64,000 nt of DNA. It comes from a virus. This document shows, piece by piece, positions 7,823 through 63,373 of the stretch. The position numbers and the translations under genes were made by a program. The notes below the pieces were generated by a model, which did not search any database, was not told the DNA's origin, and saw only the letters and a list, made by a program, of their open reading frames with translations. Each line of letters begins with the position of its first letter. Position 1 is the first letter of the stretch. The DNA lies in IMG/VR virus record IMGVR_UViG_3300025849_000022, positions 24,309 to 88,308 of that record; one strand, given 5' to 3'.

Positions 7823-8491
7823 ATGAGTACAGAATATACTAAATGGACTGTAGATAGGATACTTGATACAGCACCAATAGAAACAGACAAACTACATGTA
7901 ATGGATGTTGATAACTTTATGCATCCAGATTTGTACGCACAGGTACAAAATTGCATACCATGGAATAATTGGCAAAACGAAGAATTACCAGGCAGACACG
8001 GCTATCATATTAGTCCAGATGAATCGCAAGAAGCATTACAAATAGCCACAGAATATGTATATAATAACCAAGAGGTTTTAGATGCAATAGGTAATGTTAT
8101 GAATATGTCAAGTAATGTAAACATTAATCAACCTTTTATGTGGATGGACACAAACAAAAATTCTGTTCATGATGTGCATGTAGACCACCCTTCCTATTAT
8201 TATACAGTTCAGCATTCATTAGCAGACAACGATGAATTTGCACATACTGGTACAATGTTTTGGGAGGTTGATTGTGCGTATGATCGGGCAATCGATGAAG
8301 GATTAGATCCTACCTTTGGAGAGGATAGTAAATTAGTACGAATGGGGCACCAAATGCCTTACATACCTAATAGGGCATACATATTACCAAGAAGCAGTAA
8401 AGGTTGGCATAGTTGTCCGGACCTAACAGTAGAGCCAGATACTATGCAAAGGGTTATGGTTTATTTAATTGCTACTCTTAGGAAAACTTAA
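7823..8491 (+). CDS. 2OG-Fe(II) oxygenase-like protein
   Basis: HVD...WHS...R facial-triad pattern; TAAATA 5 nt before ATG. Confidence 0.65.
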   Translation: MSTEYTKWTVDRILDTAPIETDKLHVMDVDNFMHPDLYAQVQNCIPWNNWQNEELPGRHGYHISPDESQEALQIATEYVYNNQEVLDAIGNVMNMSSNVNINQPFMWMDTNKNSVHDVHVDHPSYYYTVQHSLADNDEFAHTGTMFWEVDCAYDRAIDEGLDPTFGEDSKLVRMGHQMPYIPNRAYILPRSSKGWHSCPDLTVEPDTMQRVMVYLIATLRKT

Positions 8492-9221
8492 CTCTATTCA
8501 AGTAAGTTTCTTTACCACGTGACATCTTGCCTTGTGTATGATCTTTAACATACCCTGTAAGTGATACAATATCGCCTACCTCAGGACCGTTAGTAGATGA
8601 AAAGAATTTTACAATATTGTGATCACCTTCTTTGGCAACATACAAGTAACTGTTACTTCTCCATATAAATTTCTTGTGAAGTATTTCAAGATTAAATGTT
8701 TCACGATCATGTAACGTTCCAACATACCGACTGTGTTGTGCAAGTTCTTTTTCCATTTTATTAAATGCACGTTGTTTCTGCCCATTTTCATAAACACTAG
8801 GCAAACTAGCAATAATACCAATATCTTTATATTGCACAAACTCTTTGTTAATAAGACCAAGTATGGTTCTTTCAAAGTCACTGATATCTCTTTTAATTGC
8901 TTTAAGACTTAGACCTTTGAAGTATTTAATCATGTGAGCAACATTGTCACTATCAGAATCAATAACTTCGACATCTTTATAATATTTAGATAAAGTGCTT
9001 TTAATACTATTTGTTTTAAATTTCTCAATACCTAGATGGTTATTGATTATAAAAAGGTTAGGCAATTTCTTTTGATAACCATTTTCATCTTCTTCGATGT
9101 TGGCATCCTTTTTGATGTAACCACCATTTACTCTGTTTACTGCTACTGACAATGAAAGAAGATCAGTAAGACTATACTGATCCTCAAACCATTTACCTGT
9201 TTTTGCTTTTTGTATATTCAT
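8478..9221 (-). CDS. hypothetical protein (possible C-terminal OB fold)
   Basis: 247-aa ORF; C-terminal VGDIVSLTGYVKDH...ETYLNRVK. Confidence 0.6.
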   Translation of the reverse strand: MNIQKAKTGKWFEDQYSLTDLLSLSVAVNRVNGGYIKKDANIEEDENGYQKKLPNLFIINNHLGIEKFKTNSIKSTLSKYYKDVEVIDSDSDNVAHMIKYFKGLSLKAIKRDISDFERTILGLINKEFVQYKDIGIIASLPSVYENGQKQRAFNKMEKELAQHSRYVGTLHDRETFNLEILHKKFIWRSNSYLYVAKEGDHNIVKFFSSTNGPEVGDIVSLTGYVKDHTQGKMSRGKETYLNRVKFS

Positions 9222-14557: not shown

Positions 14558-17500
14558 TTACTCCGCCATCACAAACGTTATCCAAGCATGGGTGCTTGTT
14601 CCAAACGATCTACTTGCTCCTGTAATGGCTTCTGATACTTTTAAGTCAACATTAGCATCTGTAGAGAAACTACCAAATGCTGTTGGTGATCCGCTACTTC
14701 CACCACCGTCTACAGTTCTAGTAGTCCAGTCTCCGCTTACTGCGTTCATGCTATACTTGTTTGAAGCATACTGATAACCATGAGCCATAATTGCTACTGG
14801 CGGATAATCAAATCCTGTGAATTGAACTTCTAATTCAGCACCTGCGGCACTTGTAATTGTTGTAGCATTAATGCCTGCTGTGACATTTGATATACTTGTT
14901 AATTCGCCTGATGTGTTATAATTTAATTTTAATCTTTCGTATGTGTTACCACGTGTTACAGAGCCGCCACCGCCTCCGCCACTAATTGTAATTGTTTTAG
15001 TTGTACCTGATCCAGATGCAACAACACCCGAACCTACAAAATTAAGAGTTGAAGCCGCTGTTGCTAATGATGAACCTTCGTCTTGTACAGTAATAGCACT
15101 ACCACTACCTGCTGGTCCTGTTGGTCCAGTTGCACCTGCTGGTCCTGTTGGACCTGCTACTGTACTTGCTTCACCTTTTTGTCCTTTATCACCTGCTGGT
15201 CCTTGTGCACCATCTGATCCTGTAGAACCATCTGCACCTGCGGCACCTTGTGCTCCAGTTTGACCTTTTTCGCCTTTATCACCTGTGGGTCCTGTTGGGC
15301 CACCTAATTCACCTTTGTCGCCCTTACTTCCTGTTGGACCAGTACCACCTACATTTCCTTGAGGTCCTGTTGGTCCAGTTGCTCCAACTGTTCCTTGTGG
15401 TCCTACTTCACCCTTAGTACCCTGTCCACCTTGTGGTCCAGTAGCACCTTGTGGTCCTAATTCACCTTTTTGTCCTTTTGCTCCGTCACTACCGTCACTA
15501 CCGTTATTACCAGTAGCACCTGTATCTCCTTTGGTACCTTGTGGACCTGTTGGTCCTGTATTTCCTTGTGGTCCTGCTACTGTGCTATCTGCACCAGTGG
15601 CTCCTTTTTGTCCTTGAGCACCTTGTGGACCTGTGGCACCTTGAGCACCAGTTGGACCTTGTGGACCTGTATCGCCTTTAGAACCCTGAGGTCCTGTTGG
15701 TCCTGCTACACCTTGTGCACCAGTTGTACCTTGAGCACCTGTAACACCTTGTTCGCCTTTTAGTCCATCGTCACCTTTCTGACCTTTGTCTCCTGCTGGG
15801 GAGGCCGCTACCCATGAACTATCATAATAAACATATAGTTCACCTGAGTCACTTGCCCACCATAAGTCGCCTTCTACTATACTACCGCTTGGTGATGTAT
15901 TTGCAACTGTTACAGAAGCATCAACACTATCCAGTGCCGAACTTATATCAACACTACTAACACCGCCACTAATAGAAATAACATTACCTGATATGCTTAG
16001 TGTTTGGTTAGTACCAGCACCAATTTCACCTTTTTGTCCTTGTGGTCCTGTTGCTCCAACTTCACCTTTGGTTCCGGTTGGACCTTGTGGACCTGTTGGT
16101 CCTACATTACCTTGTGGTCCAGTTGCTCCAACTTCGCCTTTTGATCCATCGTTACCTGCTGGTCCTTGTGGTCCAATTTCGCCTTTTGCTCCATCGTTAC
16201 CTGCTGGTCCAGTTGCACCTTGAGGTCCTGTGGCACCTGTATTGCCTTGAGCACCTTTATCTCCAGTATTACCAGCAACACCTTGTGCTCCTTGGTCACC
16301 TTTTGAACCTTTGTCTCCGTTTGCTCCTGCTGGACCAGTGTTACCTATAGCACCTTGTGGTCCAGTGGCTCCTGTTGCGCCAGTATCTCCTAATTCACCT
16401 TTTTGTCCTTTTGCTCCGTCACTACCTGCAGGTCCAGTTGCTCCAGTATCACCTTTAACTCCTGCACCACCGCCCCCGGTAGCATCGATTGTAATTGTTT
16501 GTGCATTACTATCTGCTGATATTGTTGCATTTGCACCTGCGATAAATGTTAATTGGTCTGCGGCTACATTTGCTACTACACTATTACCACCTTGTACACT
16601 TACTGTTTTAAATGCTTCGCCGGCTCCACCGCCTCCGCCACCGCCTGTGTTATTAATTGTAATAGTATCAGTACTTGCATCAGCAGTAATTGAAATGCCA
16701 CTACCTGCTACAAAATTTAATGTATCTTGATTGTTGTCTGCAATAATTAAATCTTGACCAGCAACACTGATATTTTTAAATATACCGTCATTTAATTGTG
16801 TATTATTAATTGTTACTGTATCGCCAGTGACTACTGTTGTTATTCCTGTGCCACCAACAATATTAAATGTATCGTCTTTTGCACTAGCATCAGTAGAACC
16901 TGAATCGCCTGTAAAACTCTTATAATATCTTAATGCAGATACATTGGAACTAATTGCTGTATTAACTTCTGCTTTAGTATACTTGTCAATGCTACTGTCG
17001 TCTAGTGTAGCATCTATTGTAATTGTATCTGTTCCTGGGTTAGCAGTAAAACTTACATTGCTACCGCTAACTAAATTAAGTGTATCATTATTATTGTCTG
17101 CAATAATAAGTATACCATCTGCACTAACGTTTTTAAATACGCCTGTGATAGCATCTGTTTTTGAAATCTGTATAGTATTGTTAGCAGTATATTGATTTAT
17201 ACCAATGCCTGTTCCACCCTCAAATCTAATTGCGTGGGTGGCACTTGTGGCACTGATTGTGTTTGCTGAACCAACACTAGTAACTGTGCTTATAGCATTT
17301 TGTAATTGTGCTGATGAAATATTGGCATCAACTTCTGCTTTGCTGTAAACACCTAAATTTGTTCTTGCTGTTGCGGCATTTGGTAAGTCACTTAAATTAT
17401 TTGTTTTAATAACTGCATTTGCTAATGTTGCCGCTGTAATAATAGTTGCGCCATCTTCTAATCTAATGGCCGCATCTGCTGTTCCTCTAAATCTGTTTGC

Positions 17501-18358
17501 AAATATATTTAAATATTTGTAATTGCTGTTTCCAATGTCATATGACATTGTGGTATCTGGCATACTAGTAGCATTTTTAGGTATATAATTTGCTAAGTTG
17601 GCAGTTAGTTGACTAGCAGTTAAACCACCAGTTTGTAATGTTGTCCAACTAACACCACCTGAACCATTTGTTACAAGTACTTGTCCATTTGTACCATCTG
17701 ATGTTGGTAATGTAAATGCATTAGCAAATGTTGTACTTCTGTTTGAATTTATTTTTAATGCTGGTGTTGTGCTACTTGCACTACCTACATAAAATACAGT
17801 ACTGTTTGCACTTCTAACTTCTATATGTCCATCTGTGCTTTTTGTTGCTAATATTAAACTATGTTGTGAACTAAGTTCTACATCTGCGGCATCGTTTGAA
17901 CTAATAACAAATCTTGTTTTAGAATCAAATCCTGCACTTTGACTGTGTGTAGGATAGTTTGCGTTATTTAATATACCTGCGTATGCTGTGATATTAGCAT
18001 TATCACCAAAGTTTCTACCTGAGAAGATATTTGTATTGCCATTCACATTGTGAATGCTTAATGGTGTTGGTATTGTATATGCTGTTGAGGAAACAGTAAT
18101 AACGTTTGCAGATTCAGTTACAGTAGTTGCACCTGAGCCTTGTATCTTTTTAAAGTTTAATTGTGAACCGTCTTTTGCTGAGAATAAGCCTATTCCAGAA
18201 GCACCTACATTGCTACCACCTGTAACGGCGGCGTTTGCATCTGCAGAAACACTATCTTGTGCTACAAAAATTCCTTGCGTAGAATCGTAAACTAGGATCT
18301 GATTATCGGTGATCCCGTCTATATTAAAAGTTAAATTATCTCCTGTTACATTTGGCAT
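14558..18358 (-). CDS. collagen triple-helix repeat tail fibre protein
   Basis: two long Gly-X-Y tracts, repeated [14 protein letters not shown]-like modules, [17 protein letters not shown] motif. Confidence 0.85.
15107..16462 (-). repeat. collagen (Gly-X-Y)n coding repeats in two blocks (~16013-16462 and ~15107-15797)
   Basis: [14 protein letters not shown] triplets, interrupted by a GDLWW...[11 protein letters not shown] domain. Confidence 0.9.
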
Positions 18359-18818: not shown

Positions 18819-19292
18819 CTAAACTTGTTCTAATCTTTCCATTAAACGTTCAGCACGGTTAGTAACTTGTTTATGCCATCTTGAATCTCTACCTTCTACT
18901 GCGGCAGTTTTCCAATCTTCTTTAATGATTGCGGCATGCATCTTTTTAAACTTGCTTAACCTAGTTCTACCCATATTAAACATCATATTAACCAAGATTT
19001 GCTGGACTTCGTCTGGTAAGTCTCCAAATACCCCTGCTTCGTATAGCAACTCACACTCAGATATTGCTGTGTCGAGGTCTCTTTCAAAACATTCTTTAAC
19101 ACGTTCTTCTGATACTGGTGTGCCAACCTCCGCTCCATGCTCTGGATCGGTGTCGAGGACCAAATGGCCCACTCCGAAAGTCGGGTATCCCAGGTGGTCG
19201 AGGTAAACTTCATTGACTACTCCTTCATCTATTTTGAGTTGCTCAAATACAGCATCTCTATCTAACTTTGTGTCTCTTCCAAATAATCCCAT
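18819..19292 (-). CDS. endolysin, T4-lysozyme (GH24)-like
   Basis: DEG...YLDHLGYPTFGVGHL catalytic region, NMMFNMG, SRWHKQVTNRAERL. Confidence 0.9.
   Translation of the reverse strand: MGLFGRDTKLDRDAVFEQLKIDEGVVNEVYLDHLGYPTFGVGHLVLDTDPEHGAEVGTPVSEERVKECFERDLDTAISECELLYEAGVFGDLPDEVQQILVNMMFNMGRTRLSKFKKMHAAIIKEDWKTAAVEGRDSRWHKQVTNRAERLMERLEQV
18983..19213 (-). CDS. putative overlapping gene nested in the endolysin (+1 frame, 76 aa)
   Basis: AAGGAG-6 nt-ATG; endolysin codons across this interval avoid +1-frame stops. Confidence 0.45.
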   Translation of the reverse strand: MKFTSTTWDTRLSEWAIWSSTPIQSMERRLAHQYQKNVLKNVLKETSTQQYLSVSCYTKQGYLETYQTKSSKSWLI

Positions 19293-19840
19293 TATAATTC
19301 CTCTAGTGTAACTACTTTATAAATTTCGTTTTTACCAAGTGATAATTGTAACTTGGCAACATCTTTTTTATTATCTAAGTATATTGTGCTCTTCCACCTA
19401 TCGGGTGTAGTATTTATTTTTGCATTCATACTTAAACTATTTACTTTGTCAATCCAACTACTACCTGGATTATACTTATATGTAACGTACCTATATTTAT
19501 TAAAAAACAGTCTATGTCGTAGTATTTTGTCAGTTGATTGTATAACTGCTAATTCTTTATGTGAGCGTATACCTTCTATCTTAATAATACTATCTTTAAA
19601 TTGTTTTATAAATTTTTTAGCAACTTTGCTGTCTGAGAAATATATAGTAAAGTCCTTATGCCATGCAAACTTCATTGTGTCCCAGCAGTACATATTTTGA
19701 AAATTATAGATATCGTTTAATACCATAGCATCGTGTATTAACCAATTGCCTTTAACTGATATTTTGATATGGTATTTGTTCCACCATACCTTTAAAGATG
19801 GTTGTATAACCAATCCTGCTACTGTATTTCCTAAATTCAT
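19292..19840 (-). CDS. hypothetical protein
   Basis: 182-aa ORF coupled to clpA and the endolysin. Confidence 0.7.
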   Translation of the reverse strand: MNLGNTVAGLVIQPSLKVWWNKYHIKISVKGNWLIHDAMVLNDIYNFQNMYCWDTMKFAWHKDFTIYFSDSKVAKKFIKQFKDSIIKIEGIRSHKELAVIQSTDKILRHRLFFNKYRYVTYKYNPGSSWIDKVNSLSMNAKINTTPDRWKSTIYLDNKKDVAKLQLSLGKNEIYKVVTLEEL

Positions 19841-22014
19841 TTAACTGTAAATTCAAACTGCTCAATATAATCTACAAGTACAACGCCTTCTTCTATTTTA
19901 TCAAACAGTATTTTTTTACTGATAGGTTTTTTAACTACATCTTCAAACAGTCTTTTCAACGGCCTTGCTCCCATGCTAGGTTCAAATCCATTGTCTGCAA
20001 TATACTTCTTAGCCGCTTTGGTTAGTTCTATACTAATTTTGCTGTCATTACTTAGTAGTAATTCATTTGTTTCTTTAACAATTTTGTCAATGATAAGATT
20101 AACTTCTTTCATGCCAAGTTTATTAAACTTAACATAAGAGTCTATTCTATTTCTAAACTCTGGTGTGAAGAAACTTTTAACTGCTTTGATATCTGTATCA
20201 GTGTGTGTTGTTTCGCCAAAACCAATTTTACTTGTTTCTGACTTTGCGGCACCTAAGTTACTTGTCATTATAAGTGTAACATTACTAAAGTCTACAGTTT
20301 TACCTGTAGCACCTGTAAGCCTGCCATCATCCATTACTTGTAACAATACTTGTAATACTTCTGGTGCGGCTTTCTCTACTTCGTCTAGTAGCAATACACA
20401 ATTAGGATTCTTATCTATTTCAGATAGCAACATGCCTTGTCCTAGTTCTCCTTCTGCGTGTCCAACGTAACCTGGAGGAGCACCAATAAGTTTGCTGACA
20501 CTATGTCTTTCCATATACTCTGACATGTCAAACTTAACTAGTTTAATATCTAATTCGTCTGCTAATGCTCTTGCTGTTTCTGTTTTACCTACACCTGTTG
20601 GTCCTACAAATAGGAATGTACCAATTGGTTTATTAGGCTCTCTAAGTCCTGCTTTACTAACAAGAATACTTTCTACAAGTTTATCTACTGCTTCGTCTTG
20701 ACCAAACACTTTCTTTTTAATCTTTCTATCTAATTTACTAAAGCCTTTTGTGTCTTTAACGTCAACTACATCTTTTTTAATCTTAGCAATCTTTGATACC
20801 TGTGTTACTACTGAATCAAGATTTACAACTTTTTTTCCTAGTACTTTAGAAACTGCACCTGCGGCATCCACAATGTCTAATGCCTTGTCAGGAAAGTATT
20901 TGTTTTTAATATATCTATCTGCCAGTTCACATGCTTTTTCTATAGCACCTTTTTCATACTTGACTTTGTGAAATTCTTCGTAGTATGGTTGTAGGCCTTC
21001 GCATATCTTAATTGTATCTTTAAGTGTGGTTTCTTCTATATCAAGTCTAGCAAATCTACGCATCAATGCTCTGTCTTTTTCAAATGTACTTGCAAATTCA
21101 TCTGGTGTAGTTGCACCAATACACAATAGTTTACCTTTACCTAACAATGGCTTTAACATGTTTGCCGCATCTACTTGACTGCTACCAGCACTACCGGCTC
21201 CCATGATCATATGTATTTCATCAATAAACAAAATAGCCTTGTCATCTTTTTCAATTTGATCTAATACCGTTTTAAGACGCTCTTCAAAGTCTCCTCTAAA
21301 TTTTGTACCTGCTAACATTGTACCAACGTCTATTTGATACACAATTTTATCTTCTAATGTTTTAGGAACTTGCTTGTTAATAATCTTCCATGCCATGCCT
21401 TCTGCAATAGCAGTTTTACCTACACCAGGCTCGCCAACTAAACATACGTTATTCTTTTTACGCCTTGCAAGTATTTCGACAACATCATTTACTTCTTCGC
21501 TTCTACCAATAAGTGGATCTATGCTACCATTCATTGCTTCTTCGTTTAAGTTTTTAATGTAATCTGCTGACTCTTCTACTAATTCGCCTTCGTGTACGTC
21601 GCCTAATACATCTAATAAGTTTTCTCTATGGCATCCGTTTACTGCTAGAAAGTATGCACTATGCGAGTTATCTTCATTGGTGATACTTACTAGTAAATCT
21701 ATAGCAGATATTTTGTCTCTGCCATTAAAAATACTTTGTGCAAATGCTCTTTGAAATACTCTTTCAACTGCTACTGTTTTTTTAGGTTTGCCTGTGTTGC
21801 CTCCTTCTGACTTTAAATTATTAAATTCGTCGTCATTTAAATATGTAACAATATCTGCTTCTAGTTGCTTAATATCAACATTGCATTCACCTAGCACTTT
21901 TTTGATTTCTCTATCGTTAATAAGTGCTAATGCAACATGTTCAAGAGTCATATACTCATGACTAAATTGATTAGATATTTCGTAAGCCTTTTCTATAATT
22001 CCTTCAACATTCAT
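19837..22014 (-). CDS. clpA: ClpA-type AAA+ unfoldase
   Basis: Clp N domain, GEPGVGKT and GPTGVGKT Walker A motifs, FDMSEY, GAPPGYVG, IGF loop, GARPL; no ClpB middle domain. Confidence 0.92.
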   Translation of the reverse strand: MNVEGIIEKAYEISNQFSHEYMTLEHVALALINDREIKKVLGECNVDIKQLEADIVTYLNDDEFNNLKSEGGNTGKPKKTVAVERVFQRAFAQSIFNGRDKISAIDLLVSITNEDNSHSAYFLAVNGCHRENLLDVLGDVHEGELVEESADYIKNLNEEAMNGSIDPLIGRSEEVNDVVEILARRKKNNVCLVGEPGVGKTAIAEGMAWKIINKQVPKTLEDKIVYQIDVGTMLAGTKFRGDFEERLKTVLDQIEKDDKAILFIDEIHMIMGAGSAGSSQVDAANMLKPLLGKGKLLCIGATTPDEFASTFEKDRALMRRFARLDIEETTLKDTIKICEGLQPYYEEFHKVKYEKGAIEKACELADRYIKNKYFPDKALDIVDAAGAVSKVLGKKVVNLDSVVTQVSKIAKIKKDVVDVKDTKGFSKLDRKIKKKVFGQDEAVDKLVESILVSKAGLREPNKPIGTFLFVGPTGVGKTETARALADELDIKLVKFDMSEYMERHSVSKLIGAPPGYVGHAEGELGQGMLLSEIDKNPNCVLLLDEVEKAAPEVLQVLLQVMDDGRLTGATGKTVDFSNVTLIMTSNLGAAKSETSKIGFGETTHTDTDIKAVKSFFTPEFRNRIDSYVKFNKLGMKEVNLIIDKIVKETNELLLSNDSKISIELTKAAKKYIADNGFEPSMGARPLKRLFEDVVKKPISKKILFDKIEEGVVLVDYIEQFEFTVK

Positions 22015-22022
22015 AATAGTAT

Positions 22023-22826
22023 TTAATTGTTTCTCCTGCGTTCTTGTTTAATTCTTTGTATAAGATGAACATGCTCATGACTCAATGAATCAGGTGGCAT
22101 AACTTCTACTTGTAATAAAAAGTTACCAACTATGCTACTGCGAGGATCTGTAAATCCTTCCCCTCTAAGTTTCAGTCTGCTATTTGGTTCAGTAAGTGGC
22201 GGTATATGAACTGCCAACATTCTTCCGCTAATGTGCCTAACATCTATAGTTGCACCAGTTAATGCATCAAGGTAATCTATTTGTATAATACCAATAAGAT
22301 CATTTCCGTTTTTTGCAAATTCTGGATGTGGTCGATATCTTACTCTTATAAATAAATCACCTGGCGGCAGGTTCGGGTCTTGCTGTGGACCTTTGCCGTG
22401 TACAGTAAACCGTGTACCTTCTTGTACACCTTTTGGTATTTTTAAATCTAACATACCAGTGCCTACATTGATTCGTTGTGTGGAACCGTTATATACATCT
22501 TCTAATGATAATAGTATATCAGTTTGTGCATCAAAATTTTGCTCTCTGCGTTGTTGTCCTCTTTGTCCAAATATATCTCTAAATATGTCTCCAAAAGGAC
22601 TGGCTCCGCCAAAGCCTTGTCCAAAACCTTCAAAAGGATTAGGATTATCATACTGATTACGTTTGTTTGGATCACTAAGTGTATCGTATGCTTCTTGTAC
22701 TCTTTTGAATTCCTCTGGATTACCACCTTTGTCAGGATGATGCTTACTTGCTAATTTGCGATATGCTTTTTTGATAGTGGAGGCGTCAGCATCGCGGCCT
22801 ACCCCCAATGTTTGGTAGTGATCCAT
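22023..22826 (-). CDS. dnaJ: DnaJ/CbpA-type co-chaperone
   Basis: J domain with HPD, G/F linker, C-terminal domain, no zinc finger. Confidence 0.9.
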
Positions 22827-22863: not shown

Positions 22864-23289
22864 CTATTCGTCTTTATTAAACGTTTTTGGTGCAAACTCT
22901 TTGTCAGTGCCAAAGTCTTTAAACATATTACTCTTGCCTTCTTGCTCTTCAGGTTCGTAATATTCTTTGTATGCTTCTATAATTGCTCTAAGTTTTACAA
23001 TTTGGTTACGCATTCTTACATTGTTTTTAGTTACAAGTTCCCAATCTTCATCACTGTAACCAAATACCACAGGATCAATATTTGCTTCTTTCATTTTAGC
23101 AAACACTTCTTCTTGGTTCTTGCTTGTTACAATAATAACATTTACTTGCTCTAATGTTTCTACTGGTGGTAGTTCTAAGTTAAGAGGCATTCTCTCTACT
23201 TCTTTAGTAAAAATTTCTAATGATTTAGTTGTACTACATCCACTAATAAGGAGTATAGTTAGGATTGGCAATATTAGTACATTCAGCAT
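22864..23289 (-). CDS. o-spanin-like lipoprotein
   Basis: signal peptide with lipobox LISGC; start overlaps the 3' end of the upstream TM/coiled-coil gene. Confidence 0.7.
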   Translation of the reverse strand: MLNVLILPILTILLISGCSTTKSLEIFTKEVERMPLNLELPPVETLEQVNVIIVTSKNQEEVFAKMKEANIDPVVFGYSDEDWELVTKNNVRMRNQIVKLRAIIEAYKEYYEPEEQEGKSNMFKDFGTDKEFAPKTFNKDE

Positions 23290-23728
23290 TGATCTGTGAC
23301 TTCTTGGTTGCATTTAATTCCTCCTCCGTTAGTGGCGAGCCTTGTGCTATTTCAAAACACCTTGCTCTTTGTTGCTCTCTTTTACGTTCTATTCTTTCTA
23401 TGCTTTTAGGTTTACTTAGAGCCAAGTTACCTACGTCTCTTCTTTCACCTGATGCATTTACTTTGTTAAACTTTTCATTTGCTAAGTTTAAGTCTGCTGT
23501 TAGTTTAGCATTATTTTCACTTAATACTTTATTGATTGCGGTCTTAGACTCTATATCTCTTAACTGTTGCTGTATGAGTGCCTGCTGTTGTTCTACAGCA
23601 CCATTTAGTTTCTCATTGTTAAGTGTAAGGATTTCGTTTTCTGCTTTTAGATGTTGCACATACCACAAGCCTCCAGCGGCTCCTGATAACAACATAAAAA
23701 AGAAAACTAGTTTAATTTGACCCAACAT
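23243..23728 (-). CDS. i-spanin-like protein
   Basis: N-terminal TM helix followed by a long coiled coil. Confidence 0.7.
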   Translation of the reverse strand: MLGQIKLVFFFMLLSGAAGGLWYVQHLKAENEILTLNNEKLNGAVEQQQALIQQQLRDIESKTAINKVLSENNAKLTADLNLANEKFNKVNASGERRDVGNLALSKPKSIERIERKREQQRARCFEIAQGSPLTEEELNATKKSQINAECTNIANPNYTPY

Positions 23729-62323: not shown

Positions 62324-63373
62324 TTATTTAATTAATTCAAAATGTTTGTGTATTTGATTAGGATAATGTTTAATTATATATTGATATACTTCTTTGTTGT
62401 GCTGTAATTCTCTAGCACATTCATCATACAACATATCAAAGTCATTGCCACTGTATTCATTTAAGTCAGCAACAAAACTATTCCAGCAATCTTGTTGTGT
62501 GCCAGTGTCATGATCACTACGCCATATAGGCAATGGTTCAAAGCCACAGCGAATTAATTCACCTAAATAACCATTATGACCTAGTGTTCTAAACAATCTA
62601 CCATGTGCTATGCTTCTGGCAGTCTTTTCTGTGAGTAATACACTATTTGTGAATTGATTTCTGGGAAATGTTTCTGATATTATATCCATATGACTCTGTG
62701 AATAAACACTTTGAGGTACCAAACAACTGATATCAAGTGTGTCTCCGGGTTGATAACACATGCTGGGTTGGCCTTTGTACTCATGATCAATATTACAATT
62801 ATGTCTGCTTTCACTGGTACCACTGTAAAAACCACTGACATCATAGTCAAGTGTGGTACCATCTCTACCAGCATAATTAACCAATGCATTGTGTTCGCAC
62901 AACACATCTGCTATTTGATCTCTGATTGTTTTCTGTCTGCCTAACAAACAGGCAAAATCATAGTCACGATCACCTGGCTCATAGTCATAATCCAACACAG
63001 GCAAACGAGCAATCCAAGGTTGCCATGTGCTATGTACACCTAAATTCTGCACACGATCATGATGATTACAGTGATATATTATGCTGTAATCTGATAACAT
63101 GCTTAATATTGTTTCGGCAGTTGCACGACTACTGGCATGTGTGGGCCAAAACTCTTCTGTGCTGATTAATACCACATGATCTACACTGGCAATCATGTGC
63201 TGTAGGTCTGAAAACTGTGATTGTGATAACTGTAAACAGGCATACCAATTAACTATGCCTAATTTACCTGAAAAACCTGTTACTACATCTGCATTTGCAT
63301 AATTGTGATAACAGGTATTGATGCTGTTTGGTGTGTTTCCACTCAGTGAATCAGGCGGATAAAAGTATTGCAT
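62324..63373 (-). CDS. hypothetical protein (possible glycosyltransferase-like C-terminus)
   Basis: IISET...LTEKTAR...GF motif; ATG 5 nt after TAAATA. Confidence 0.55.
   Translation of the reverse strand: MQYFYPPDSLSGNTPNSINTCYHNYANADVVTGFSGKLGIVNWYACLQLSQSQFSDLQHMIASVDHVVLISTEEFWPTHASSRATAETILSMLSDYSIIYHCNHHDRVQNLGVHSTWQPWIARLPVLDYDYEPGDRDYDFACLLGRQKTIRDQIADVLCEHNALVNYAGRDGTTLDYDVSGFYSGTSESRHNCNIDHEYKGQPSMCYQPGDTLDISCLVPQSVYSQSHMDIISETFPRNQFTNSVLLTEKTARSIAHGRLFRTLGHNGYLGELIRCGFEPLPIWRSDHDTGTQQDCWNSFVADLNEYSGNDFDMLYDECARELQHNKEVYQYIIKHYPNQIHKHFELIK

What the first reader, a model, noticed from the sequence alone, without database searches (positions are those of the whole stretch)
18983..19225. 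Probable overlapping gene hidden in the endolysin
Seen in sequence: a 76-codon +1-frame ORF inside the lysozyme gene, preceded by AAGGAG-6 nt-ATG. Across this interval the lysozyme switches to codons that are rare in this AT-rich genome wherever the usual NTA+G would create a +1-frame TAG (CTC GAC three times, CTG GGA, GTG GGC, TTG GTC, TTG GTT). Outside the overlap the same gene uses TTA GAT, ATA GAT, TTA ATG and TTA GAA. Inference: selection keeps the second frame open. The product has no lipobox or TM segment, so it is not an Rz1-type spanin and could be a new lysis regulator.
Basis: partly seen in the sequence, partly recalled or inferred. Interest (0 to 1): 0.75.

Follow-up and report, generated by a model that had tools for sequence, protein, structure and literature searches.

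The report
Hidden gene inside phage lysozyme gene
A second, out-of-frame 76-codon gene sits inside the lysozyme gene of an uncultured marine T4-like phage; comparison with about 80 relatives shows that selection keeps it open, so it is very probably a real, unannotated small protein whose function is still unknown.

Summary
The T4 e-type lysozyme gene (18819-19292, minus strand) holds a 76-codon +1-frame ORF (18983-19213). It starts 6 nt after an AAGGAG that is made by the codons of the catalytic Glu-Gly.

Under the window's own codon usage, 6.7 +1 stops are expected and none is seen (P about 2e-5). Of 35 diverged homologues (<85% nt identity), 23 have no stop; the others have up to 6.

Leu/Val/Ile codons ending in TA make up 11% before A/G-starting codons inside the overlap, but 52% before C/T-starting codons. 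Outside the overlap the figures are 56% and 49%. A GC patch cannot produce this contrast. The other four alternative frames are not depleted of stops.

Rare codons (TAC84, GGG87, GAC94) are fixed only in lineages with the open frame. They define a conserved C-terminal motif, YTKxGxLxTYxTK...SWLI. No conserved RNA structure was found.

The product is basic, Ser/Thr-rich and non-membrane, and has no known family. It is not a holin or a spanin.

A second lysozyme clade carries a +1 ORF at the same ATG that does encode a membrane protein.

I found no published or earlier-scan report of this. The gene is very likely real. Its role as a lysis regulator is only inferred.

The parts
18819..19292 (-). 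Host gene: T4 e-type lysozyme, 157 aa. Its ATG overlaps the stop of the upstream 182-aa gene (TAATG).
   Evidence: ORF list. Pfam PF00959, E 3.7e-10. PHROG endolysin/tail-lysozyme families.
18983..19213 (-). Nested +1-frame ORF of 76 codons plus TGA. The predicted product is basic (pI 9.6), Ser/Thr-rich and hydrophilic.
   Evidence: Open in 45 of 62 unique homologues. P(open) about 2e-5 under the window's codon usage.
19220..19225 (-). Shine-Dalgarno-like AAGGAG, 6 nt upstream of the nested ATG. It is formed by the codons GAA GGA G(TA) of the catalytic Glu23-Gly24-Val25.
   Evidence: Sequence. A GA(A/G)GG core is present in all homologues because Glu-Gly is invariant.
19211..19213 (-). Nested start codon ATG, made from the third base of Asn27 (AAT) plus GA of Glu28.
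   Evidence: The third base of codon 27 is T in 45 of 45 intact homologues. Three of 17 broken ones have C, which gives ACG. +1 stops lie 1-6 codons upstream in most homologues.
19055..19210 (-). Variable N-terminal two thirds of the nested product (residues 2-53). The lysozyme's third codon positions are enriched in C/G here, which gives Ser/Thr/Pro/Ala/Trp in the nested frame instead of hydrophobic residues.
   Evidence: Hydrophobicity is far below stop-free synonymous resamples in 23 of 23 representatives.
18986..19054 (-). Conserved C-terminal part of the nested product (residues 54-76), with motif V..YTKxGxLxTYxTK...SWLI. The model shows a beta-hairpin here at low confidence.
   Evidence: Lysozyme third positions are fixed only in intact lineages: TAC84 23/23 vs 3/12, GGG87 21/23 vs 2/9, GAC94 21/22 vs 4/12. 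AF2 strands at 51-57 and 63-69, pLDDT about 60.
18983..18985 (-). Nested stop TGA inside ATGATG (lysozyme Met103-Met104).
   Evidence: Met-Met is invariant in all 62 homologues, so this stop is fixed by the lysozyme protein.

Best explanation
The stretch holds a genuine overprinted protein-coding gene.

How it is made (inferred). The lysozyme mRNA carries an internal ribosome-binding site, AAGGAG-6 nt-AUG. The codons of the catalytic Asp-Glu-Gly motif and the following Asn-Glu create this site almost automatically. Ribosomes that start there read 76 codons in the +1 frame and stop at the UGA inside the AUGAUG of Met103-Met104. Translation from the internal AUG has not been shown.

What it makes. 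The product is a 76-residue basic, Ser/Thr-rich, non-membrane polypeptide. Its N-terminal two thirds vary freely. Its C-terminal third is conserved (YTKxGxLxTYxTK...SWLI).

What is shown. Across many independent lineages selection has:
(a) removed +1 stops;
(b) kept the ATG;
(c) pushed the composition away from the hydrophobic default of this frame;
(d) fixed rare lysozyme codons that specify the C-terminal motif.
The gene is dispensable: it decayed about ten times in this clade.

What is inferred only. The function is unknown. The gene is made from the endolysin message, and a sister lysozyme clade has a single-pass membrane protein (holin/antiholin-like) at the same position. My best guess, at about 30% within this explanation, is a soluble accessory factor that tunes lysis timing by acting on the holin or the lysozyme.
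For: - Chance: P(open) about 2e-5 under the window's own codon usage.
- Homologues: 23 of 35 representatives below 85% nt identity have 0 stops where 5.3-7.7 are expected; decayed ones reach 6.
- Potential +1 stop sites: 9% realised inside the overlap against 63% outside.
- Frame specificity: +2 and the three antisense frames are not depleted of stops.
- Context specificity: inside the overlap, NTA codons are 11% before A/G-starting codons and 52% before C/T-starting codons. Outside they are 56% and 49%. Fisher p = 3e-32, not corrected for phylogeny.
- Start codon: ATG in 45 of 45 intact genes.
- Rare codons fixed only in intact lineages, p = 3e-6 to 3e-4.
- Composition: selected against hydrophobicity in 23 of 23 representatives.
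- Phylogeny: one supported clade, which includes GenBank Phage C48C1, with about 10 losses.
- No alternative RNA explanation: no conserved RNA structure and no excess folding energy.
- Parallel case: an ORF at the same ATG in a second lysozyme clade is open in 61 of 72 genes. There 3.4% of potential stops are realised inside against 54% outside, and third positions are selected for T, which gives a TM helix.
Against: - There is no direct evidence of translation. The RNA-library contigs only show that the sequence occurs in metatranscriptome libraries.
- Synonymous diversity over the whole overlap is not reduced, so two thirds of the peptide is almost free to vary.
- The AF2 model is poor: pLDDT 58, pTM 0.21.
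- No homologue exists as a stand-alone gene among 1.8 billion representative proteins.
- About a third of lineages have lost the ORF, so any function is accessory.
- The statistics are not formally corrected for phylogeny, although dereplicated representatives give the same picture.
Confidence: 0.8

Rival explanations
1. Translation without a functional peptide. The catalytic-site codons create an unavoidable strong internal start. Selection only shapes what those ribosomes do: the frame is kept open to the fixed UGA in AUGAUG, and the peptide is made hydrophilic so that it is harmless. Possible reasons are to avoid termination events inside the lysozyme ORF, or to allow restart at Met104.
For: - Most of the peptide varies freely.
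- The SD and ATG are largely forced by lysozyme residues.
- The stop overlaps ATG codons in a TGATG arrangement typical of coupling.
- The default +1 peptide would be hydrophobic, with maxKD19 of 1.58 in resamples, so detoxification is plausible.
Against: - An early stop would be the cheapest way to silence the peptide, and mutation favours it (TTA and GTA are the commonest codons). Yet stops are avoided.
- The ATG could be removed by a synonymous AAT to AAC change, but it is kept in 45 of 45 intact genes.
- Rare codons that specify particular residues of the C-terminal motif are fixed only where the frame is open.
Confidence: 0.1
2. The +1 frame is reached by ribosomal frameshifting from the lysozyme frame. 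This would give a fusion of the lysozyme N-terminus with the +1 C-terminus rather than a separate protein.
For: Public protein sets hold chimeras that switch from the lysozyme frame to the nested frame (P0012, P0013, P0023, P0024) and the reverse (P0021, P0026, P0028).
Against: - Those chimeras are encoded as such in their DNA, so they are indels or sequencing errors, not evidence of recoding.
- The ATG with its SD is conserved.
- The +1 frame is closed by stops just upstream of the ATG in most homologues.
- I noted no slippery motif by eye; no dedicated motif search was run.
Confidence: 0.04
3. By-product of a locally GC-rich or recombinant segment, or of an RNA element, with no selection on the +1 frame.
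For: The window has a sharp GC peak of 0.58. GC-rich DNA has few stops in any frame, and a 93-codon antisense ORF also lies there.
Against: - Only the +1 frame is depleted of stops across homologues.
- NTA codons are frequent inside the overlap wherever they are harmless: 52% against 11%.
- The enrichment recurs in over 20 diverged lineages and disappears where the frame is broken.
- The consensus fold energy is about 0 with no covarying pair. The folding z-score is -0.36.
Confidence: 0.02

Closest known systems
[quoted passage not shown] 1999, J Bacteriol 181:4452; title seen in the reference list of PMC3615230; the paper itself is not held)
   Same: A small gene lies wholly inside a phage endolysin gene, in another frame on the same strand, and is presumably translated from an internal start on the same mRNA.
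   Different: By its title, hol187 is holin-like. From my own knowledge, not checked here, ply187 is a CHAP-type endolysin of a Gram-positive phage. Here the host gene is a T4 e-type lysozyme of a marine T4-like phage. The product has no hydrophobic segment (maxKD19 -0.02). No sequence relation is known. The clade-B ORF found here, with a TM helix, is the closer functional analogue.
Rz1 o-spanin embedded in the +1 frame of Rz (lambda and many phages; PMC6139136)
   Same: +1-frame overprinting inside a lysis gene. The embedded product diverges faster than its host gene and is rich in disorder-promoting residues.
   Different: Rz1 is a lipoprotein with a signal peptide and lipobox, and its host gene is the i-spanin. 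The nested product here has neither feature. The phage already has a separate overlapping i-/o-spanin pair at 23243-23728 and 22864-23313, with lipobox LISGC.
T4 lysis-inhibition factors RI (antiholin with a SAR domain) and RIII (small cytoplasmic co-antiholin). This is general knowledge, not tested here.
   Same: Small accessory proteins of T4-like phages that tune lysis timing and are dispensable. RIII is soluble and of similar size.
   Different: No sequence similarity was detected (no Pfam or PHROG hit). RI and RIII are stand-alone genes, not overprinted ones. There is no SAR or TM segment here.
De novo overprinted viral genes in general (Rancurel et al. as cited in PMC6139136; reviews PMC8227390, PMC3494269)
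   Same: Orphan distribution limited to one clade, biased composition, predicted disorder, accessory role, and origin inside an older structured gene.
   Different: The start signal is supplied by the catalytic-site codons of the host enzyme. The same site has given two contrasting products, soluble and membrane, in two lysozyme clades.

Membership tests
Overprinted (overlapping) protein-coding gene | Alternative-frame ORF longer than codon usage predicts | tested here: met
   6.7 stops expected, 0 seen, P about 2e-5.
Overprinted (overlapping) protein-coding gene | Open frame, start codon and frame boundaries conserved in diverged homologues, in this frame only | tested here: met
   23 of 35 representatives are open. 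ATG in 45 of 45 intact genes. Only the +1 frame is depleted of stops. The stop avoidance depends on the next codon's first base.
Overprinted (overlapping) protein-coding gene | Constraint on synonymous sites of the host gene that matches residues of the second frame | tested here: met
   Met for the last third: TAC84, GGG87 and GAC94 are fixed only in intact lineages. Not met for the first two thirds, where only composition is constrained.
Overprinted (overlapping) protein-coding gene | Direct evidence of translation (Ribo-seq, peptides) | not testable with these tools
   Only RNA-library contigs that cover the gene.
Holin (including embedded hol187 type) | At least one transmembrane domain | tested here: not met
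   Window product maxKD19 is -0.02, and clade A reaches at most 1.23. In contrast, clade B has a median of 2.39.
o-spanin (Rz1 type) | Signal peptide with lipobox Cys | tested here: not met
   No N-terminal hydrophobic region and no conserved Cys.
Antiholin RI type | N-terminal SAR/TM segment plus periplasmic domain | tested here: not met
   Charged residues run through the N-terminus and there is no hydrophobic stretch.
Cationic membrane-disrupting lysis peptide (disruptin-like) | Cationic and strongly amphipathic helix | tested here: inconclusive
   Net charge is about +5 and pI 9.6. The helical hydrophobic moment is not above stop-free resamples: 0.44 against 0.50.
Phage_lysozyme PF00959 (host gene) | Profile match and the Glu/Asp/Thr catalytic region | tested here: met
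   E 3.7e-10 over residues 23-153. D22, E23, G24, D32 and T38 are invariant.

The most novel reading that the evidence does not exclude
T4-type lysozyme genes of marine phages are a recurrent birthplace of new genes. The catalytic Asp-Glu-Gly codons supply a built-in SD-ATG in the +1 frame. From that one site two products have evolved. One is a single-pass membrane protein (clade B, a candidate embedded holin or antiholin). The other is the soluble basic protein seen in this window (clade A), which would be a new class of lysis-timing regulator acting on the holin or the lysozyme.
Probability: 0.3. Interest if true: 0.85.

Novelty: new variant of a known kind. Interest (0 to 1): 0.72.

Why it matters
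Overlapping genes in large dsDNA phages are almost never annotated. The only GenBank relative, Phage C48C1, lists just the lysozyme at this place.

This case is unusually clean. Hundreds of natural sequences are available. Lineages that lost the ORF serve as an internal control. The origin is readable: the enzyme's active-site codons double as a ribosome-binding site.

It gives a testable example of de novo gene birth. It adds an unknown player, or in the sister clade a candidate holin, to the poorly known lysis systems of abundant uncultured marine T4-like phages.

It also warns that recoding or codon-optimising lysozyme genes of this family would silently destroy a second gene.

Tried and rejected
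- Pfam, PHROGs and the ESM Atlas found nothing for the nested product.
- The profile search of 1.8 billion representative proteins found only the same nested ORFs, frameshift chimeras, low-complexity hits and the clade-B type. It found no stand-alone homologue.
- AlphaFold2 of the nested product gave low confidence (pLDDT 58), so I ran no fold search.
- Complex prediction of lysozyme plus nested product gave no verdict (score 0.07, below the mark). This is not evidence either way.
I replaced it with the search for related loci.
- Whole-overlap synonymous diversity showed no reduction, so a simple "low dS" test fails here.
- RNA structure as the cause of the conserved block: consensus energy about 0, no covariation, z = -0.36.
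- Amphipathic-helix enrichment is not above the null.
- Metatranscriptome contigs show that the sequence occurs in RNA libraries, but they give no 5' ends, strand or frame.
- One listed variant (19112 A>T) would on its own make a +1 stop. The table lists it with 19113 T>G at the same depth and contig count in X16 and X17, so the two probably lie on the same contigs. By my hand reading of the codon (TAT to TCA), the pair together gives Ser, not a stop; one search tested the two changes only singly.
- The Loessner 1999 paper is not held.
- Literature searches found no report of a gene inside a T4-type lysozyme gene.
- The scan's earlier notes hold none either.

Full report
**What is there**

The minus strand of 18819-19292 encodes a 157-residue T4 e-type lysozyme (PF00959, E 3.7e-10). 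Its ATG overlaps the stop of the upstream 182-residue gene (TAATG).

Inside it, at offset +1, lies a 76-codon ORF (18983-19213). Its ATG comes 6 nt after AAGGAG. The AAGGAG is spelled by GAA GGA G of the catalytic Glu23-Gly24-Val25. The ATG comes from AAT GAA (Asn27-Glu28). The stop is the TGA inside ATG ATG (Met103-Met104).

GC reaches 0.58 at 19100-19199 against about 0.30 around it.

The window is part of an 88-kb IMG/VR virus record. The nearest GenBank phage is Phage C48C1, family Kyanoviridae, with 66% lysozyme identity. That record annotates only the lysozyme at this place.

**Is it more than chance in this genome?**

I took 64 other long ORFs of the window and derived codon usage conditional on the first base of the next codon. 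Before a G, Leu is TTA or CTA in 71% of cases and CTC in 1%.

Under this model the 77-codon stretch should hold 6.7 +1 stops. The chance of holding none is e^-10.8. It is the second most extreme +1 open run in the window.

**Comparative test**

The search for related loci returned 80 marine IMG/VR loci with 76-96% lysozyme identity. It reported 593 relatives in all. They give 62 unique genes.
- 45 of the 62 have no +1 stop across the 76 codons. The other 17 have one to several, and three of those also lack the ATG.
- Sites where the lysozyme amino-acid pair could create a +1 stop are realised in 9% of cases inside the overlap (67/737). Outside it the figure is 63% (489/771).
- The depletion is specific to the +1 frame. 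The +2 frame and the three antisense frames have similar stop densities inside and outside, and almost no sequence is open in them.
- After dereplication to 35 representatives below 85% nt identity, 23 have zero stops where 5.3-7.7 are expected. The decayed ones carry up to 6, which is the neutral expectation.

**Control for the GC patch**

Inside the overlap, Leu/Val/Ile codons ending in TA are used in 52% of cases when the next codon starts with C or T, where they are harmless. They are used in only 11% when it starts with A or G, where they would make TAA or TAG. Outside the overlap the two figures are 49% and 56% (site detail). A general shift in composition cannot produce this contrast.

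The C/G enrichment recurs in all lineages with the open frame. It is absent from the decayed ones, where GC3 of codons 27-60 is 0.09-0.24.

**Selection on the peptide**

Synonymous diversity over the whole overlap is not reduced. The first two thirds of the product vary freely, for example with Leu/Ser/Trp swaps.

Two signals nevertheless act at the peptide level.

First, composition. I compared the real products with exact stop-free synonymous resamples. In 23 of 23 representatives the real products are less hydrophobic:
- GRAVY is -0.48 against +0.29.
- Ile/Leu/Val/Phe/Met make 26% against 42%.
- Ser plus Thr make 27% against 12%.
- The most hydrophobic 19-residue window scores 0.60 against 1.58.

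This is the cause of the GC patch. Lysozyme third positions are the second positions of the nested codons. C or G there gives Ser, Thr, Pro, Ala or Trp, where T would give hydrophobic residues.

Second, specific residues in the last third. The following rare codons are fixed in intact lineages but not in broken ones:
- TAC at Tyr84: 23/23 against 3/12 (p = 3e-6).
- GGG at Gly87: 21/23 against 2/9.
- GAC at Asp94: 21/22 against 4/12.
- TTT at codon 89, xTA at codons 83 and 92, and TTG at codon 100 are nearly invariant.

Together they specify V..YTKxGxLxTYxTK...SWLI.

No conserved RNA structure explains this block. The consensus energy is about 0, no pair covaries, and the folding z-score is -0.36.

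**Distribution**

On a lysozyme protein tree the open ORF occupies one supported clade: 51 of 72 rows, including Phage C48C1. That clade shows about ten independent losses. The ORF is absent from the outgroups, which include Pelagibacter podophages. The gene is therefore old within this clade and dispensable.

**Nature of the product**

- pI is 9.6 and net charge is about +5.
- There is no hydrophobic segment, no lipobox and no conserved Cys.
- There is no Pfam, PHROG or Atlas match.
- AlphaFold2 with 40 homologues gives a long helix plus a hairpin over the conserved motif, at low confidence (pLDDT 58).
- A profile search of 1.8 billion representative proteins found only the same nested ORFs, DNA-level frameshift chimeras, and a second type with an N-terminal hydrophobic segment.

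**The second type (clade B)**

That second type maps to the same ATG and frame in a different lysozyme clade, which is 46-61% identical to the window's lysozyme.

I collected these lysozymes without regard to the nested frame. In that set:
- 61 of 72 unique genes are open for 69-74 codons.
- Potential stops are realised in 3.4% of cases inside against 54% outside.
- All products of 25 residues or more (65 scored) carry a TM-grade segment (median 2.39), followed by a hydrophilic tail of about 45 residues that usually contains Cys.
- Third positions in the TM part are 66% T against 37-40% elsewhere, which shows selection for hydrophobic residues.
- AlphaFold2 models the helix at pLDDT 82-94.

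The tree separates clades A and B but does not resolve whether the ORF arose once or twice.

**Mechanism and function**

What is shown: selection for an open +1 frame, for its start codon, for its composition and for its C-terminal motif.

What is inferred: internal initiation on the lysozyme mRNA, and any role in lysis.

The gene sits in the endolysin message. No holin is evident near it. The clade-B counterpart looks like a holin or antiholin.

My best functional guess is therefore a soluble lysis-timing accessory, held at low confidence.

The main rival is translation that matters only mechanically. It is weakened because both an early stop and loss of the ATG would be easy mutations, yet both are avoided. 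It is also weakened by the fixed rare codons.

**Prior knowledge**

Embedded genes in lysis genes are known. Examples are hol187 in ply187 and Rz1 in Rz (PMC6139136).

I found no report of a gene inside a T4-type lysozyme gene or in marine T4-like phages. The scan's earlier notes hold none either.

**Verdict**

I class it as a new variant of a known kind, and the function remains open.

Noticed in passing
L153:1486-1725 and L176-L255 (IMG/VR loci), not in the window: A second clade of marine phage T4-type lysozyme genes carries a +1 ORF at the homologous ATG. It encodes a 69-74-residue single-pass membrane protein with a tail that usually contains Cys. It is open in 61 of 72 unique genes, and potential stops are realised in 3.4% of cases inside against 54% outside. 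It is a candidate embedded holin or antiholin.
   Followed up: partly
window 8612-8908 (minus), inside gene 8478-9221: A 99-codon +1 open run with logP(open) of -10.97 under the same null, as extreme as the lysozyme case. It is partly hydrophobic. There is no ATG near its start.
   Followed up: no
window 62683-62910 (minus), inside gene 62324-63373: A 76-codon +1 open run with logP of -7.1, starting with Met at its second codon. It is hydrophobic and has no obvious SD.
   Followed up: no
public proteins P0012, P0013, P0023, P0024, P0021, P0026, P0028: Database proteins that switch between the lysozyme frame and the nested frame part-way. These are most simply indels or sequencing errors made visible because both frames are open. 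They could also be natural frameshift variants.
   Followed up: no
window 19837-22826 (minus): A ClpA/ClpB-like AAA+ ATPase (725 aa) and a DnaJ-like protein (267 aa, J domain with HPD) lie between the spanin pair and the lysozyme. This is an unusual chaperone pair inside a lysis-related stretch.
   Followed up: no
window 22864-23728 (minus): An overlapping spanin pair. The i-spanin is 161 aa with an N-terminal TM segment. The o-spanin is 149 aa with lipobox LISGC and starts inside the i-spanin's 3' end.
   Followed up: partly
window 14558-18358 (minus): A 1266-residue fibre-like protein with long collagen-like Gly-X-Y runs, downstream of the lysozyme and a 123-residue virion-protein homologue.
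   Followed up: no
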